Source: an uncultured archaeon (lineage in GTDB: Archaea > Halobacteriota > Archaeoglobi > Archaeoglobales > Archaeoglobaceae). From it: a stretch of 64,000 nucleotides of DNA. The translations under genes and the position numbers were made by a program. This document shows positions 18,182 through 35,736 of the stretch, piece after piece. The notes under the pieces were generated by a model. The model searched no databases, was not told the origin of the DNA, and saw nothing but the letters and a program-made list of their open reading frames with translations. The DNA lies in the NCBI GenBank assembly GCA_964596255.1, contig CAZQTT010000001.1, positions 20,327-84,326 on the forward strand. The letters run 5' to 3'. Numbering within the stretch: the first letter of the stretch is position 1; every line of letters begins with the position of its first letter.

Positions 18182-18931
18182 TTATGCGATGTCTTTAGAG
18201 GTATCTATCTTTATCCCCTCTTCTACTTTAAATTTGAAGGTCTCCTTTACGGGAGGTCTGTTTCTGATTTTTGGAATGGAAAGAACACTTTTTATTTGTG
18301 CTCCAACTTCTTCACTGCGGACATTAAAAACAACGTCACTGATCTCTATTACCATATTGATTATTTCTGTGGGGTGAACACCTTTCATCAGGTATATGTA
18401 AAATAGATTTTTGCTCTCTTTAGAGAGCAAGTAAATTTTGTTCAGCAGCCACTCTTTTAGAGCGAAATCTACATCTAATTTCATGAAAAAGGAAATAGAG
18501 TCAAATATTACATTGAAATCTTCTGGAGTGTGCAGGTCTTTCAATTGGTTGTTTAAAAAGCTAAATACTTCTTTCTTCTTCCATTTGCTGTCTATCAAAA
18601 ATTGTTCGAACTCTGTCTTACCATAATGAGAGAATACATCAATAAACTCTACATTTTCCACCGGAAAACCCATACTGGACATATTTTCCTGTATATACTG
18701 GACAGGGCGGAATGTGTTAAAATAGTAGGTCTTTCTTTCTGAGGACAGTTGGTACAGGAACGCTTCTGGCATACTAATGGGATCAGCATAGATACATACC
18801 AGACTATTTTCAGGTAATCCTCCTCCGAATTGTTTATCAAGCAATTCAATTCCTGTGGGTCTGTTACCTATTTTTTTGGTGGTTTTACTTATTTTGTCTA
18901 AGTGTTTTTGTAATTCAGAATTCACCATCAT
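18182..18931 (-). CDS. KaiC/RecA-fold protein lacking a Walker A P-loop (pseudo-ATPase)
   Basis: TGIELLDKQFGGGLPENSLVCIYADPISMPEAFLYQL aligns with the KaiC-like entry motif, but GxxGxGKT is replaced by ADPISMPE. 249 aa. Confidence 0.65.
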   Translation of the reverse strand: MMVNSELQKHLDKISKTTKKIGNRPTGIELLDKQFGGGLPENSLVCIYADPISMPEAFLYQLSSERKTYYFNTFRPVQYIQENMSSMGFPVENVEFIDVFSHYGKTEFEQFLIDSKWKKKEVFSFLNNQLKDLHTPEDFNVIFDSISFFMKLDVDFALKEWLLNKIYLLSKESKNLFYIYLMKGVHPTEIINMVIEISDVVFNVRSEEVGAQIKSVLSIPKIRNRPPVKETFKFKVEEGIKIDTSKDIA

Positions 18932-19220
18932 ACTGTAACAACCGTATAAAGCTAATAACCACTACAAAAAAAGGTTTACTCAAAAGCCATTATGAGAATA
19001 TGAAACCAAGATACCCCCAGAGAATTTTTTATGATAGTTTGCAGGCGTTTAAAGTTACATTTATTTGAAATACAAATGTGATTATGGATCCTATTTAATT
19101 CAAACATTTTATACCGGACATTGGGGCAGATGGCGACTGTAGAGTAGTAAAACTAAATCATAATGAGATAATAGCAAACTTAATAATTTCTAATAATTAT
19201 TATCATAAAGGTTAGCAATA

Positions 19221-34252: not shown

Positions 34253-35056
34253 ATGAGCGACCAGTCTGTTAGCGATGAATTGGGAATGAAGAAGTTCCCT
34301 ACCAAGTTGGACTTTCTGGATGATAAAATAGAGGGTTTTTATCCGGGCTTTGTGATACTCCACGGTGTTGTGGGTGCAGGCTCTACAGAATTCGCCCTGA
34401 CATTCTTAATGAACAATTCGGATTCTGACGAGAAAGTCAGTCTATATTATATAGCAATAGCCAAAACAAAGGAAGAGGTTTTGAGAGAGATAAAGCTCGT
34501 TTTTCCCGAGGAGAAGAGTAAAAGGCTGATAGAGAACCTGAATGTCATAACTCTGGCAGAAGATTATTTTAAAGGCAGTATCGTGCCTCTTCGCTGGATT
34601 TCCAACAGAGTATTGACCATAAATGAGTTGAAAAGCGGTAAAGATATTCTAACTTCGCTGGCAGAGACTATCGAGCAGTGTGAAGAGAGAAGCATAATTT
34701 TGATGGATTCCATAACCGATTTGGCGAGGATAGCCAGAGAAAGAATAAAATGGAACGACCTTGTAGATTTAATAAACGGGTTGAAAAAGATCTGTGTAAG
34801 CAAAGACACTCTCATGATGTCCCTATTAACCTCTGATGCCCTGGAAAAAGAAAAAGAAGAAGAACTAATGGACCAGGGAGACGGAGTTCTGATATTTGAG
34901 TGGTCCATGCAGGAGGACTCCATCGAGAGATGGCTCTACTTCAGAAAATTCACCGGAATACTGCCTCTACTGGAGCAGGAAGGTATTCTCAAGTACAACG
35001 TAAGTATCGATCCCCAGTTGGGCTTCACCATATCGAATACAGTAAGGGTGATCTGA
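34253..35056 (+). CDS. KaiC/RecA-fold protein with a degenerate Walker A (lysine replaced)
   Basis: FVILHGVVGAGSTEF carries GAGST instead of GxGKT. A Walker B-like IILMDSITDL is retained. Confidence 0.65.
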   Translation: MSDQSVSDELGMKKFPTKLDFLDDKIEGFYPGFVILHGVVGAGSTEFALTFLMNNSDSDEKVSLYYIAIAKTKEEVLREIKLVFPEEKSKRLIENLNVITLAEDYFKGSIVPLRWISNRVLTINELKSGKDILTSLAETIEQCEERSIILMDSITDLARIARERIKWNDLVDLINGLKKICVSKDTLMMSLLTSDALEKEKEEELMDQGDGVLIFEWSMQEDSIERWLYFRKFTGILPLLEQEGILKYNVSIDPQLGFTISNTVRVI

Positions 35057-35736
35057 TGCTCTCTACGGGTGTGGAGGGAATGGACAGCTTACTTGGTGGA
35101 GGAATTCCTCACGGACACATAGTTGCTGTGGTGGGGACTTTTGGGACCGGTAAGACAACGCTGGGCATTCATTTCATTTATGAGGGGGTAAAAAACGGGG
35201 AGAACTGCATTATCTTAAGCTTTGACGAAAATGAGGAGAGTATAATTGAAAATGCATTGAGTTTCGGGATGGATTTAGCTGATTTTGGAGACCAGGTGCA
35301 GGTGGTCAGACTGGAAGCTGCTGAGCTGAGGAGGAGTTTGGAAAGGCTGGAGAGCGAGATACCAGAGATAATAGAGAACAACAATACCAGCAGAATTCTG
35401 GTGGATACCATAAGCGTAATGGAGACTCTATTCGATGATGCGGACAGGTATAAGATGTTATCCAATTTGAGGAACACTTTCAAATCCGTGGGGACAACAG
35501 CCATAATCACAACCGAGGCAGACAAGTACAATACGACTTACTCCAAATACGGGATACTGGAATACATCTGCGATGGCTCAATATGCCTGCAGATCAAGAG
35601 GAGAGCTGAACTCGAAGAGCCCAGCCTGGGTCTGGAAATAGTGAAGATGCGTAGAGTAAAACATTCCCGAAAAATAAAGCCCTACGTGCTCACGGAGAAC
35701 GGTATTATTGTGCATGAGGATGCCGAACTGTTTTAA
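35056..35736 (+). CDS. Single-domain KaiC/RadB-like RecA-superfamily ATPase
   Basis: STGVEGMDSLLGGGIPHGHIVAVVGTFGTGKTTLGIHF (Walker A) and RILVDTISVM (Walker B). The ATG at 35056 overlaps the upstream stop (TGATG). The track extension from 34900 lies inside the upstream gene. Confidence 0.85.
   Translation: MLSTGVEGMDSLLGGGIPHGHIVAVVGTFGTGKTTLGIHFIYEGVKNGENCIILSFDENEESIIENALSFGMDLADFGDQVQVVRLEAAELRRSLERLESEIPEIIENNNTSRILVDTISVMETLFDDADRYKMLSNLRNTFKSVGTTAIITTEADKYNTTYSKYGILEYICDGSICLQIKRRAELEEPSLGLEIVKMRRVKHSRKIKPYVLTENGIIVHEDAELF

What the first reader, a model, noticed from the sequence alone, without database searches (positions are those of the whole stretch)
18182..35736. KaiC-saturated FlaI/FlaJ locus with an actin-like ATPase, a giant TPR protein and a PAS-DUF835 sensor: candidate undescribed surface-filament or DNA-handling system
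Eleven contiguous genes occupy 17.5 kb and form three transcription blocks. (1) A P-loop-less KaiC-fold gene is divergent from a 1357-aa TPR gene. (2) On the minus strand lie an Mrr-like-KaiC fusion, a ParM-like actin and an RHH/Cys-rich acidic protein. (3) On the plus strand lie a FlaI-like ATPase, a FlaJ-like platform protein, a 734-aa protein with a class III signal peptide, a PAS x3-DUF835 sensor, a degenerate KaiC and an intact KaiC, with overlapping or near-abutting stops and starts. The core FlaI/FlaJ pair is the engine of archaella and archaeal type IV pili, and FlaH/ArlH shows that KaiC-fold proteins can gate FlaI. Everything that defines a known machine is missing here: there are no flagellins, FlaF/G/C/D/E/X, small major pilins or prepilin peptidase. 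The locus instead carries cytoskeletal, nuclease-fold and sensory modules. One inferred reading is a signal-controlled machine that displays or extrudes one large adhesin. Another is a pilus-coupled DNA uptake or processing apparatus, given the nuclease-fold-RecA-like fusion and the RHH protein.
Basis: partly seen in the sequence, partly recalled or inferred. Interest (0 to 1): 0.85.

Follow-up and report, generated by a model that had tools for sequence, protein, structure and literature searches.

The report
Pilus motor with KaiC regulators, plus neighbours
The eleven genes are real, but they are not one new machine: a type IV pilus assembly module with its own KaiC-type regulator pair sits beside an unrelated actin-like gene pair and some lineage-specific neighbours.

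Summary
The single-system reading does not.

- **Full cluster.** The 11-gene arrangement recurs only in a near-identical relative (88% ATPase identity). That relative also shares the housekeeping flanks, so the match shows only that the two genomes are closely related.
- **Real unit, g6-g11.** It contains a PilB3-type ATPase, a TadC/PilC platform, a large Ig-domain protein with a type IV pilin N-terminus, a PASx3-DUF835 sensor, a P-loop-less KaiC and an active KaiC. The pseudo-KaiC/KaiC pair lies next to PilB/PilC in 48 of 48 informative distant metagenomic loci. In a neighbour-joining tree these fall into two separate PilB clades. A 2016 comparative-genomics survey already noted KaiC families beside such loci, and pilins encoded elsewhere.
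- **Actin pair, g4-g3.** This pair occurs throughout Archaeoglobi in unrelated housekeeping contexts, without KaiC or pilus genes.
- **Other genes.** The Mrr-like-KaiC fusion, the giant TPR protein and the leftmost KaiC-fold gene are neighbours only in a narrow lineage.
- **DNA handling.** Nothing supports a DNA-uptake role.

Most likely function: signal-gated assembly of an adhesive pilus, by analogy with ArlH gating ArlI.

Verdict: new member of a known kind. Interest 0.35.

The parts
26604..28205 (+). g6: PilB3-type type IV pilus assembly ATPase. The true start is probably near 26622.
   Evidence: T2SSE 5.6e-36 and PilB3_C 8e-7. Walker A GETASGKT. The FlaI model scores 393 bits, below its 550 cut-off. 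Orthologues occur across Archaeoglobi, Halobacteria and Methanomicrobia.
28189..30072 (+). g7: TadC/PilC-type membrane platform. It overlaps g6 by 17 nt.
   Evidence: Two T2SSF stretches, 4.3e-28. About 10 hydrophobic segments. It follows the ATPase in nearly all of 80 genome loci.
30084..32288 (+). g8: 734-aa pilin-like surface protein. It has a class III signal peptide and pilin N-terminal helix, a conserved N-domain, a Big_1 Ig-like domain and a variable C-terminus. It is a candidate minor pilin or adhesin.
   Evidence: The motif DEKG|VSPLLGFIL is the only one of its kind in the window. V10, S11, G15, I17 and L18 are invariant in 7 of 7 homologues that lie next to PilB/TadC. Big_1 2.6e-16. 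It lies beside PilB/TadC in L001, L003, L004, L016, L081/82, L024, L051 and L115.
32410..34239 (+). g9: cytoplasmic sensor with three PAS domains, a coiled coil and DUF835 (an inactivated KaiC-like output domain).
   Evidence: PAS 8.6e-35 (three stretches) and DUF835 1.2e-25. No TM segment and no Walker A. DUF835 is treated as iKaiC in PMC5847659. It keeps the same position in L001 and L081 but is absent from the distant KaiC-PilB loci.
34253..35056 (+). g10: P-loop-less KaiC-fold protein (pseudo-ATPase), the obligate partner of g11.
   Evidence: KaiC 6.8e-7. GAGST replaces GxGKT, and GAGxxEF is invariant in the family. g11 follows it in 60 of 60 distant loci and 9 of 10 closer loci. PilB is adjacent in 48 of 48 informative distant loci.
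35056..35736 (+). g11: single-domain KaiC ATPase with an intact Walker A. Its start overlaps the g10 stop by 1 nt.
   Evidence: TIGR03880 KaiC_arch_3 scores 271.6 bits, above the 249.45 cut-off. KaiC Pfam 2.8e-57. GTFGTGKT.
23922..24947 (-). g4: actin-fold ATPase (MreB/MamK-like). It belongs to a separate conserved pair with g3, not to the pilus module.
   Evidence: MreB_Mbl 1.2e-20 and ALP_N. PDB MreB 5e-8 and MamK 1.4e-7. Orthologues at 50-64% identity occur in cultured Archaeoglobus and Geoglobus, in contexts lacking KaiC and pilus genes.
23330..23917 (-). g3: 195-aa partner of the actin. It has an RHH-like N-terminus (unconfirmed), five invariant Cys, an acidic linker and a conserved C-terminal ...LLxDW.
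   Evidence: It lies 4 bp downstream of g4. Orthologues sit immediately after the actin in 7 other loci, at 31-74% identity. There are only 8 representative clusters among 1.84 billion proteins. It has no Pfam, PDB or PADLOC hit.
25053..26318 (-). g5: fusion of an Mrr-like (PD-(D/E)xK-like topology) N-domain to a P-loop KaiC domain. It is a lineage-specific neighbour.
   Evidence: KaiC 1.6e-40. Mrr_cat scores 20.4 bits, below the 21 cut-off. The AF2 model (pLDDT 80.6) has three helices followed by strand-strand-strand-helix-strand-helix-strand in the N-domain. Its C-domain matches KaiC CI. There are about 8 orthologues. The 49% orthologue lies in a different context. A 72% orthologue has neither PilB nor the actin beside it.
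19221..23294 (+). g2: 1357-aa all-TPR cytoplasmic protein. It is a lineage-specific neighbour, convergent on g3.
   Evidence: TPR families reach 1.7e-211. No TM segment. It is kept next to g3 only in L001 and L086/L090.
18182..18931 (-). g1: P-loop-less KaiC-fold protein (DUF7125), divergent from g2. There is no evidence that it belongs to anything else here.
   Evidence: DUF7125 1.9e-19. ArlH scores 49.8 bits, below the 215 cut-off. An orthologue in the same position is seen only in L001. In L086/L090 other genes take its place.

Best explanation
The 17.5-kb stretch is a mosaic of independent units that happen to adjoin in one narrow archaeal lineage related to Archaeoglobi.

**Unit A (g6-g11)** is a euryarchaeal PilB3/PilC3-type type IV pilus assembly module with a built-in KaiC-type control layer.
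- Shown: g6 and g7 are the ATPase and platform.
- Shown: g8 carries a prepilin-type N-terminus and an Ig-like domain.
- Shown: the g10/g11 pair is persistently linked to PilB/PilC across distant lineages.
- Inferred: g8 is cut by a prepilin peptidase encoded elsewhere. It is then built into, or at the tip of, a filament of PilA-type pilins that are also encoded elsewhere, and it serves as an adhesin.
- Inferred: g10 (no P-loop) and g11 (active) form a mixed RecA-like ring. The ring's nucleotide or autophosphorylation state decides whether it docks on the PilB hexamer, as ArlH does on ArlI.
- Inferred: the cytoplasmic PASx3 sensor feeds a redox, ligand or light signal into that ring through its own inactivated-KaiC (DUF835) domain. 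Pilus assembly is thereby switched at the motor.

**Unit B (g4-g3)** is an Archaeoglobi-wide actin-like filament protein with a dedicated small Cys-rich partner. It is unrelated to the pilus.

**g5, g2 and g1** are lineage-specific neighbours of unknown role. They are probably further members of the large archaeal KaiC signalling network.
For: **Domain identities.**

**Synteny of the full cluster.**
- Of 80 genome loci with a PilB relative, only L001 has all 11 genes. L001 has 88% ATPase identity and the same NFACT...SepF-ZPR1-Thi4 flanks.
- L002-L016 (47-63% identity) keep PilB/TadC, with or without g8.
- L081 (69%) keeps g6-g7-g8-g9-g10 colinear but has a different upstream region.
- L083 (75%) has the g10/g11 orthologues in a divergent operon on the other side of PilB.

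**The KaiC pair and PilB/PilC.**
- A scan with a g10 alignment gave 70 distant loci at 29-34% identity. They form 12 clusters at 70% identity, with GC 0.38-0.64.
- g11 follows g10 in 60 of 60 loci, and PilB/TadC lie alongside in 48 of 48 loci that have at least 2 kb of upstream sequence.
- In a neighbour-joining tree those PilBs form one clade. The window lineage sits separately, inside KaiC-less Archaeoglobi PilBs. The link therefore exists in two PilB clades.

**g8.** The pilin N-terminus is conserved in 7 of 7 homologues.

**The actin pair.** Actin+g3 is conserved alone.

**Literature.**
- ATPase/TadC loci without pilins, a 250-550 aa Ig-like minor pilin, and KaiC families beside clade-2 and Methanomicrobia loci (PMC4858521).
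- ArlH hexamer binding to ArlI is controlled by autophosphorylation (bioRxiv 10.1101/2021.03.19.436134).
- DUF835 is treated as an inactivated KaiC domain (PMC5847659).
Against: - No experiment or structure shows g10/g11 binding PilB. Physical gating is an analogy with ArlH.
- The KaiC-like CirA of Haloferax acts at least partly through transcript levels.
- In five Archaeoglobi-like loci whose g10 is 43-55% identical, the KaiC pair is not near PilB. The link is therefore frequent, not obligatory.
- PAS-DUF835 is missing from the distant KaiC-PilB loci. The sensor step is specific to this lineage.
- Within the narrow lineage, g5-g4-g3-TPR stay together (L086/L090), and g5 abuts g6 in at least three MAGs. 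A lineage-specific functional tie cannot be excluded on genomic grounds alone.
- The neighbour-joining tree has no support values.
Confidence: 0.68

Rival explanations
1. The KaiC pair and the PAS-DUF835 sensor do not touch the motor. They form a phospho-signalling hub that sets transcription of the pilus genes, or of a wider regulon. They sit beside PilB/PilC only because they are co-regulated.
For: - Haloferax CirA, a KaiC-like protein, lowers arl transcript levels.
- KaiC-type ATPases are proposed to be general signalling hubs in archaea (cited in PMC5847659).
- In most distant loci the pair is divergently transcribed from PilB. That layout suits a regulator and its target promoter.
- In 5 closer loci the pair lives elsewhere.
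Against: - No DNA-binding domain is present in g9, g10 or g11.
- The tight 48-of-48 adjacency to the ATPase itself, rather than to pilin genes, parallels arlH-arlI.
Confidence: 0.2
2. All eleven genes form one lineage-specific composite machine. It would be a pilus or secretion engine coupled to an actin-like filament, a TPR scaffold and several KaiC switches.
For: - The genes are contiguous with short gaps.
- g5 and g6 share a 285-bp divergent region.
- The whole set is kept in L001.
- g5 abuts g6 in another MAG: P0004 and P0247 lie on one 3056-bp contig.
- g5-g4-g3-TPR are kept at 76% actin identity.
Against: - L001 also keeps the housekeeping flanks, so its synteny is uninformative.
- The g5|g6 junction is gone at 69-75% ATPase identity.
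- A 72% g5 orthologue has neither neighbour.
- The actin+g3 pair occurs alone across Archaeoglobi.
- In L171 the actin pair sits directly beside SepF-ZPR1. This suggests that in the window lineage the pilus/KaiC block lies between them through rearrangement.
Confidence: 0.07
3. The locus is a pilus-coupled DNA uptake or processing apparatus. It would use the nuclease-fold-RecA-like fusion (g5) and the RHH protein (g3).
For: - The Mrr_cat hit is marginal, and weak in P0248.
- The g5 model has a PD-(D/E)xK-like strand/helix order.
- The N-terminus of g3 has an RHH-like pattern.
- Type IV pili mediate DNA exchange in some archaea (Ups pili; general knowledge).
Against: - g3 is the conserved partner of the actin, not of the pilus.
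- The canonical D...(D/E)xK residues are not evident among the invariant residues of g5.
- The relative of g5 sits with a glycosyltransferase.
- There are no ComEC, DprA, helicase or nuclease genes in the block.
- There are no PADLOC hits.
- There are no iterons near the actin operon.
Confidence: 0.03

Closest known systems
Euryarchaeal 'clade 2' type IV pilus systems (PilB3/PilC3 adhesion-pilus type of Haloferax volcanii) as catalogued by Makarova, Koonin & Albers 2016 (PMC4858521)
   Same: - A VirB11-family ATPase with a PilB3_C tail.
- A TadC/PilC platform.
- A long Ig-like protein with a class III signal peptide, as described for the arCOG02911 minor pilin.
- Major pilins and the prepilin peptidase are encoded elsewhere.
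- KaiC-family genes lie nearby.
   Different: - g8 is 734 aa, longer than the 250-550 aa described.
- The KaiC pair and a PAS-DUF835 sensor are colinear with the motor genes in one apparent operon.
- The lineage is Archaeoglobi-related. The survey noted co-transcription of arCOG01172/01173 KaiC families for Methanomicrobia.
- I could not test arCOG membership of g8, g10 or g11.
ArlH-ArlI-ArlJ core of the archaellum
   Same: - A KaiC-fold protein is encoded beside a FlaI/PilB-family hexameric ATPase and its polytopic platform.
- ArlH binding to ArlI is tuned by autophosphorylation (10.1101/2021.03.19.436134).
   Different: - There are no archaellins and no FlaF/G/C/D/E/X.
- g6, g7 and all the KaiC-fold proteins score far below the ArlI, ArlJ and ArlH cut-offs.
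- Here the KaiC component is a pair: one pseudo-ATPase and one active ATPase.
Archaeal KaiC-centred signalling network (KaiC/iKaiC with PAS, REC and other modules; Makarova, Galperin & Koonin 2017, as cited in PMC5847659)
   Same: - Several KaiC and inactivated-KaiC domains are clustered.
- There is a sensor-DUF835 architecture.
   Different: - I could not read the primary paper, which is not held. I therefore cannot say whether this exact PASx3-DUF835 + iKaiC + KaiC + PilB arrangement is listed there.
- The Mrr-like-KaiC fusion has only about 8 orthologues in 5.8 billion proteins.
ParMRC type II partition systems; the MamK/salactin group of actin homologues
   Same: - For g4-g3: the actin-fold ATPase gene is followed immediately by a small partner with an RHH-like N-terminus and a conserved C-terminal tail.
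- Salactin relatives are reported in Archaeoglobi (PMC10746226).
   Different: - The context is chromosomal housekeeping.
- There are no centromere-like repeats.
- RHH is unconfirmed.
- The ParM, MamK and salactin models all score far below their cut-offs.

Membership tests
Archaellum (ArlI/ArlJ/ArlH with archaellins) | The ATPase reaches the ArlI/FlaI equivalog score. | tested here: not met
   NF058587 scores 393 bits, below the 550 cut-off.
Archaellum (ArlI/ArlJ/ArlH with archaellins) | The platform reaches the ArlJ score, and a KaiC-fold gene reaches the ArlH score. | tested here: not met
   ArlJ scores 78.3 bits against a 550 cut-off. ArlH scores 49.8 (g1), 43.5 (g5), 20.6 (g10) and 44.5 (g11) against a 215 cut-off.
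Archaellum (ArlI/ArlJ/ArlH with archaellins) | Archaellin genes and ArlF/G/C/D/E/X are in the locus. | tested here: not met
   No such Pfam or NCBIfam hit appears among the 11 genes or the flanks. Only g8 carries a class III motif in the 64-kb window.
Euryarchaeal clade-2 (PilB3/PilC3-type) type IV pilus system | A VirB11/PilB-family ATPase with a PilB3-like C-terminal domain, next to a TadC/PilC platform. | tested here: met
   T2SSE 5.6e-36 and PilB3_C 29.6 bits, above the 27 cut-off. T2SSF appears twice. The two genes overlap by 17 nt.
Euryarchaeal clade-2 (PilB3/PilC3-type) type IV pilus system | A signature Ig-like minor pilin with a class III signal peptide (arCOG02911). | tested here: inconclusive
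   The class III motif is conserved in 7 of 7 homologues and a Big_1 domain is present. arCOG assignment and FlaFind were not available. Pfam Pilin_N was not reported for g8.
Euryarchaeal clade-2 (PilB3/PilC3-type) type IV pilus system | PilA-family major pilin(s) and a prepilin peptidase are present in the genome. | not testable with these tools
   None was found in the 64-kb window (partial Pfam survey). The rest of the genome is not available. The literature says these are often encoded in trans.
KaiC family (single-domain archaeal KaiC, TIGR03880) | The score exceeds the curated cut-off and Walker A is intact. | tested here: met
   g11 scores 271.6 bits, above the 249.45 cut-off, and has GTFGTGKT. 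g5 has the Pfam KaiC domain and a P-loop but is below every NCBIfam cut-off. g1, g9 and g10 lack the P-loop.
Cyanobacterial-type Kai oscillator | A double-domain KaiC with KaiB (and KaiA) partners. | tested here: not met
   All KaiC-fold genes here are single-domain. circ_KaiC scores are far below the cut-off. No KaiB-like hit appears in the locus.
ParMRC type II partition system (for g4-g3) | An actin-like ATPase, an RHH adaptor and an upstream centromere repeat array. | tested here: not met
   The actin fold is present. ParM scores 40.6 bits against a 417 cut-off. RHH is not detected by HMM or hhalign. No direct-repeat array lies upstream of g4 or g5. The context is chromosomal.
Mrr-type restriction endonuclease (for the g5 N-domain) | An Mrr_cat domain above the cut-off, with catalytic D...(D/E)xK. 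| tested here: inconclusive
   The hit scores 20.4 bits against a 21 cut-off. The fold order fits a PD-(D/E)xK core. The canonical motif is not recognisable among the invariant residues. Foldseek hits were dominated by the KaiC domain.
Known anti-phage defence systems | Any locus protein matches a PADLOC model specifically. | tested here: not met
   The only hits are generic TPR matches for g2 and a weak RecA-fold hit (mad8, 27 bits) for g11.

The most novel reading that the evidence does not exclude
The pseudo-KaiC/KaiC pair (g10/g11) is a dedicated ArlH-like gate for PilB3-type pilus motors, and it has been recruited to PilB/PilC in two separate PilB clades. In this lineage a soluble PAS sensor would plug straight into that ring through its own dead-KaiC domain. 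That would give a complete sensor-to-motor pathway needing neither a two-component system nor transcription. A further, less likely extension is that the Mrr-like-KaiC (g5) similarly controls the adjacent actin-like filament. KaiC-fold switches would then be the common currency for controlling both cytomotive ATPases.
Probability: 0.25. Interest if true: 0.6.

Novelty: new member of a known kind. Interest (0 to 1): 0.35.

Why it matters
How archaeal adhesion pili are switched on and off is largely unknown. The only motor-level regulator studied so far is ArlH of the archaellum.

This analysis gives a cleanly delimited four-gene module: TadC, PilB, a pseudo-KaiC and a KaiC. It is present in dozens of diverged lineages, and here it carries an attached PAS sensor. 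That makes a concrete, testable candidate for motor-level control of a non-archaellum pilus.

The analysis also removes a false lead. The actin, TPR and nuclease-like genes should not be built into models of this machine.

The Archaeoglobi-wide actin+partner pair is a small separate lead for archaeal cytoskeleton work.

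Tried and rejected
- **RHH fold of g3.** Pfam at E<=5 on four orthologues found nothing relevant. hhalign of the 8-member alignment against a real RHH_12 protein from L088 gave probability 0.5%. The single-sequence AF2 model had pLDDT 49.7 and was unusable. A PDB sequence search gave 0 hits. RHH remains a pattern-level guess.\n- **Mrr fold of g5.** Foldseek on the full model returned only KaiC matches, and the N-domain could not be searched alone.\n- **parC-like centromere.** No repeat arrays lie in the g4/g5 or g5/g6 intergenic regions.\n- **Defence-island reading.** PADLOC was negative.\n- **Other conserved partners of the distant KaiC-PilB module.** Clustering ORFs of 70 loci gave only shadow ORFs, a 162-aa cytoplasmic protein in 30 loci and TldD-like housekeeping genes. 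It gave no pilins and no PAS-DUF835.\n- **RNA genes.** The window holds only one tRNA.\n- **Primary KaiC-hub paper.** The mBio 2017 paper (PMC5717392) is not held.\n- **P0128 look-up.** It failed.

Full report
**1. Observation.**

The eleven ORFs are present at the stated coordinates. Profile searches confirm almost every domain call.
- g1 (18182-18931, -) is a DUF7125/KaiC-fold protein without a P-loop.
- g2 (19221-23294, +) is 1357 aa of TPR.
- g3 (23330-23917, -) has no family hit.
- g4 (23922-24947, -) has an actin fold (MreB_Mbl 1.2e-20).
- g5 (25053-26384, -) joins a marginal Mrr_cat hit (20.4 bits against a 21 cut-off) to a strong KaiC domain.
- g6 (26604-28205, +) is a T2SSE ATPase with a PilB3_C tail.
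- g7 (28189-30072, +) has two T2SSF domains.
- g8 (30084-32288, +) has a Big_1 domain.
- g9 (32410-34239, +) is PASx3-DUF835.
- g10 (34253-35056, +) is a weak KaiC.
- g11 (35056-35736, +) is a KaiC_arch_3 member above its curated cut-off.

Walker A is intact in g5, g6 and g11 and absent from g1, g9 and g10. Gene spacing supports the three blocks.

The g8 N-terminus, MRLIGDEKG|VSPLLGFILMLMILMISISAL, is a textbook class III (prepilin) signal. It is the only such motif in the 64-kb window.

The flanks are housekeeping genes: NFACT on the left, and SepF, ZPR1, Thi4, a GHMP kinase and an aminotransferase on the right. Best hits place the organism among Archaeoglobi-related archaea.

**2. Naming corrections.**
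- The ATPase and platform fall well below the archaellum ArlI and ArlJ cut-offs (393 against 550 bits; 78 against 550). They carry the PilB3-type C-terminal domain, so they are pilus-type rather than archaellum-type.
- None of the KaiC-fold proteins reaches the ArlH cut-off.
- The actin is closer to MreB and MamK than to ParM.
- DUF835 is regarded in the literature as an inactivated KaiC domain (PMC5847659). The locus therefore has five KaiC-fold domains.

**3. Is the 11-gene set co-conserved?**

I scanned one genome per species with an alignment of PilB orthologues, taking 10-kb flanks, and obtained 80 loci.
- By tblastn and phmmer with all window proteins, only L001 has the full set. L001 has 88% ATPase identity.
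- L001 also shares NFACT on one side and SepF-ZPR1-Thi4 on the other. Its synteny therefore reflects recent common ancestry, not selection on the cluster.
- Archaeoglobi loci at 47-63% identity (L002-L016) keep only PilB-TadC. Three of them also have a g8 homologue alongside.

Intermediate relatives are the most telling.
- L081 (69%) has g6-g7-g8-g9-g10 in the same order. Upstream it has a receiver-domain gene and an unknown gene.
- L083 (75%) has, upstream of PilB, a divergent operon: iKaiC, a KaiC fused to a Ras-like GTPase, Roadblock/LC7, V4R, and then clear orthologues of g10 and g11.
- The g5|g6 junction is therefore not conserved, but the g10/g11 pair stays with the motor even when the layout changes.

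**4. The KaiC pair is the true partner of the motor.**

A metagenome scan with a g10 alignment gave 80 loci.
- Seventy are distant (29-34% identity to g10) and diverse. Their pairwise identity runs from 33% to 100%, they form 12 clusters at 70% identity, and their GC ranges from 0.38 to 0.64.
- Among these 70, g11 follows g10 in 60 of 60 loci with enough downstream sequence.
- A PilB-TadC pair lies alongside in 48 of 48 loci with at least 2 kb of upstream sequence, usually divergently.
- In ten closer, Archaeoglobi-like loci (43-55% identity) g11 again follows g10. None of the five informative ones has PilB nearby. There the pair sits with other KaiC-fold genes.

In a neighbour-joining tree of 135 PilB sequences (the window's plus 134 from the fetched loci), the distant KaiC-linked PilBs form one clade: 54 of its 57 leaves are KaiC-linked. 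The window lineage is nested among Archaeoglobi PilBs that lack KaiC neighbours. The tree has no support values. The association thus appears in two PilB clades. That argues for a functional tie rather than inherited gene order.

No other gene is conserved with the distant four-gene module. PAS-DUF835 and g8 are additions seen in the Archaeoglobi-side lineage.

**5. g8.**

Seven homologues that lie beside PilB/TadC share the [DE][KD][GA]VS[PE] cleavage region and hydrophobic helix. They also share a conserved N-terminal domain of about 250 aa, followed by variable Ig-like C-termini. This matches the published description of the signature minor pilin of euryarchaeal systems: variable length, Ig-like, and recognised by FlaFind (PMC4858521). 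I could not test arCOG membership. The only hydrophobic segment in g8 is at the N-terminus.

**6. The actin block is a separate unit.**
- g4 has orthologues at 50-64% identity in Archaeoglobus veneficus, A. profundus, A. sulfaticallidus, A. neptunius and Geoglobus species.
- In A. veneficus, A. profundus and three further lineages, the actin is followed immediately by a 165-174 aa protein with no Pfam hit. That protein aligns with g3 at 31-48% identity.
- g3 and these proteins share five invariant cysteines, an N-terminal strand-helix-helix-like pattern and a C-terminal ...LLxDW end.
- Those loci have ordinary housekeeping neighbours and no KaiC or pilus genes.
- The g3 family is tiny: 8 representative clusters among 1.84 billion proteins.
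- In L171 the pair lies directly beside SepF-ZPR1, the same genes that follow g11 in the window. This suggests that in the window lineage the pilus/KaiC block came to lie between them by rearrangement.
- No repeat array that could serve as a centromere lies upstream of g4 or g5. RHH could not be confirmed.

**7. g5, g2 and g1.**
- The Mrr-like-KaiC fusion has about eight orthologues in the 5.8-billion-protein collection.
- At 74-76% identity (L086/L090), g5-g4-g3 and the convergent TPR gene stay together. Other genes then replace g1 and NFACT.
- A 72% orthologue (L173) has neither PilB nor the actin beside it.
- The only distant orthologue (49%, P0248) sits between a V4R gene and a family-2 glycosyltransferase, with other KaiC genes nearby.
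- An AlphaFold model of g5 (pLDDT 80.6) shows three helices and then a strand-strand-strand-helix-strand-helix-strand core before the KaiC domain. That order fits a PD-(D/E)xK fold.
- The canonical catalytic residues are not evident among the invariant positions of g5. Foldseek returned only KaiC matches.
- PADLOC gave nothing specific for any gene.

**8. Mechanism.**

What is shown:
- A PilB3-type ATPase, its platform and a pilin-like Ig-domain protein form a conserved core.
- A pseudo-ATPase/ATPase KaiC pair is its recurrent neighbour.
- In this lineage, a cytoplasmic triple-PAS protein ending in a dead KaiC domain is inserted between them in one co-directional, tightly spaced array.

What is inferred:
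- g10 and g11 form a mixed ring.
- The ring docks on the PilB hexamer in a manner dependent on nucleotide state or autophosphorylation. This is what has been shown for ArlH and ArlI (10.1101/2021.03.19.436134).
- The PAS protein modulates that ring through KaiC-fold to KaiC-fold contact.
- g8 is processed by a prepilin peptidase and displayed on a filament of PilA-type pilins encoded elsewhere. Published work on PilB3-type loci in haloarchaea describes this arrangement (PMC4858521).

The main alternative is that the KaiC pair acts on transcription. The KaiC-like CirA of Haloferax does so, at least in part.

**9. Comparison and novelty.**

The 2016 comparative-genomics survey of archaeal type IV pili already reports several of these features:
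- ATPase/TadC loci duplicated without pilins in Archaeoglobales;
- pilins supplied in trans;
- the Ig-like minor pilin;
- KaiC families near clade-2 loci;
- arCOG01172/01173 KaiC genes possibly co-transcribed with the ATPase/TadC operon in Methanomicrobia.

The core here is therefore a new member of a kind known from genome analysis but not characterised experimentally. The local peculiarities are the colinear PAS-DUF835 sensor, the long g8, and the occurrence in an Archaeoglobi-related lineage.

The 11-gene 'system' is not a real unit. The DNA-handling reading has no support.

I score interest at 0.35. The four-gene KaiC-PilB module is a good experimental target, and the actin+partner pair is a modest new lead. 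A specialist would not be surprised by either.

Noticed in passing
window 56404-64000: Probable integrated mobile element. It holds a tyrosine integrase (56404-57315, Phage_integrase 1e-29), a wHTH/Zn-finger regulator (59043-59639), a MazE-like gene (59991-60332) and two DUF3987 proteins (60736-62043, 62432-63535). GC falls to 0.33-0.39 with a strong positive GC skew.
   Followed up: no
L083:5708-9952 (relative with 75% PilB identity): An operon divergent from PilB/PilC: iKaiC (DUF7504/DUF835-like), a KaiC fused to a Ras-like small GTPase, Roadblock/LC7, V4R, and then the g10 and g11 orthologues. A GTPase + Roadblock pair beside a pilus motor recalls the MglA/MglB polarity control of bacterial type IV pili, here tied to KaiC.
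   Followed up: partly
window 23330-24947; L084:8001-10374, L085:8001-9490, L087:10001-12343, L171:1393-3821, L172:6001-8355: Archaeoglobi-wide gene pair: an actin-like ATPase plus a ~165-195 aa Cys-rich partner ending in ...LLxDW. In L084, L087, L171 and L172, but not in L085 or the window, a ~280-305 aa gene follows; in two of these (L084, L171) it has a weak or faint luciferase-like hit. The partner family has only 8 representative clusters in 1.84 billion proteins. It may be an adaptor for a MamK/salactin-related filament.
   Followed up: partly
L171:133-2950 compared with window 23330-36961: In L171, SepF-ZPR1-TatA lie directly next to the actin pair. In the window, the same SepF-ZPR1 pair follows g11, with g5 and the pilus/KaiC block in between. 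This is evidence of local rearrangement or insertion.
   Followed up: partly
L088:9258-15119: The only distant Mrr-like-KaiC orthologue (49%) sits in V4R - Mrr-KaiC - GT2 (cellulose-synthase-like) glycosyltransferase - ... - KaiC, with a convergent REC-KaiC gene. This is another KaiC-dense locus, tied to a surface-polysaccharide enzyme rather than a pilus.
   Followed up: no
window 1815-1909: The single tRNA of the window, tRNA-Thr(TGT), spans 95 nt. ARAGORN places its anticodon at position 39, so the gene probably has an intron.
   Followed up: no
window 9386-10900: A full-length haem catalase (Catalase 1.5e-202) in a genome related to the mostly anaerobic Archaeoglobi.
   Followed up: no
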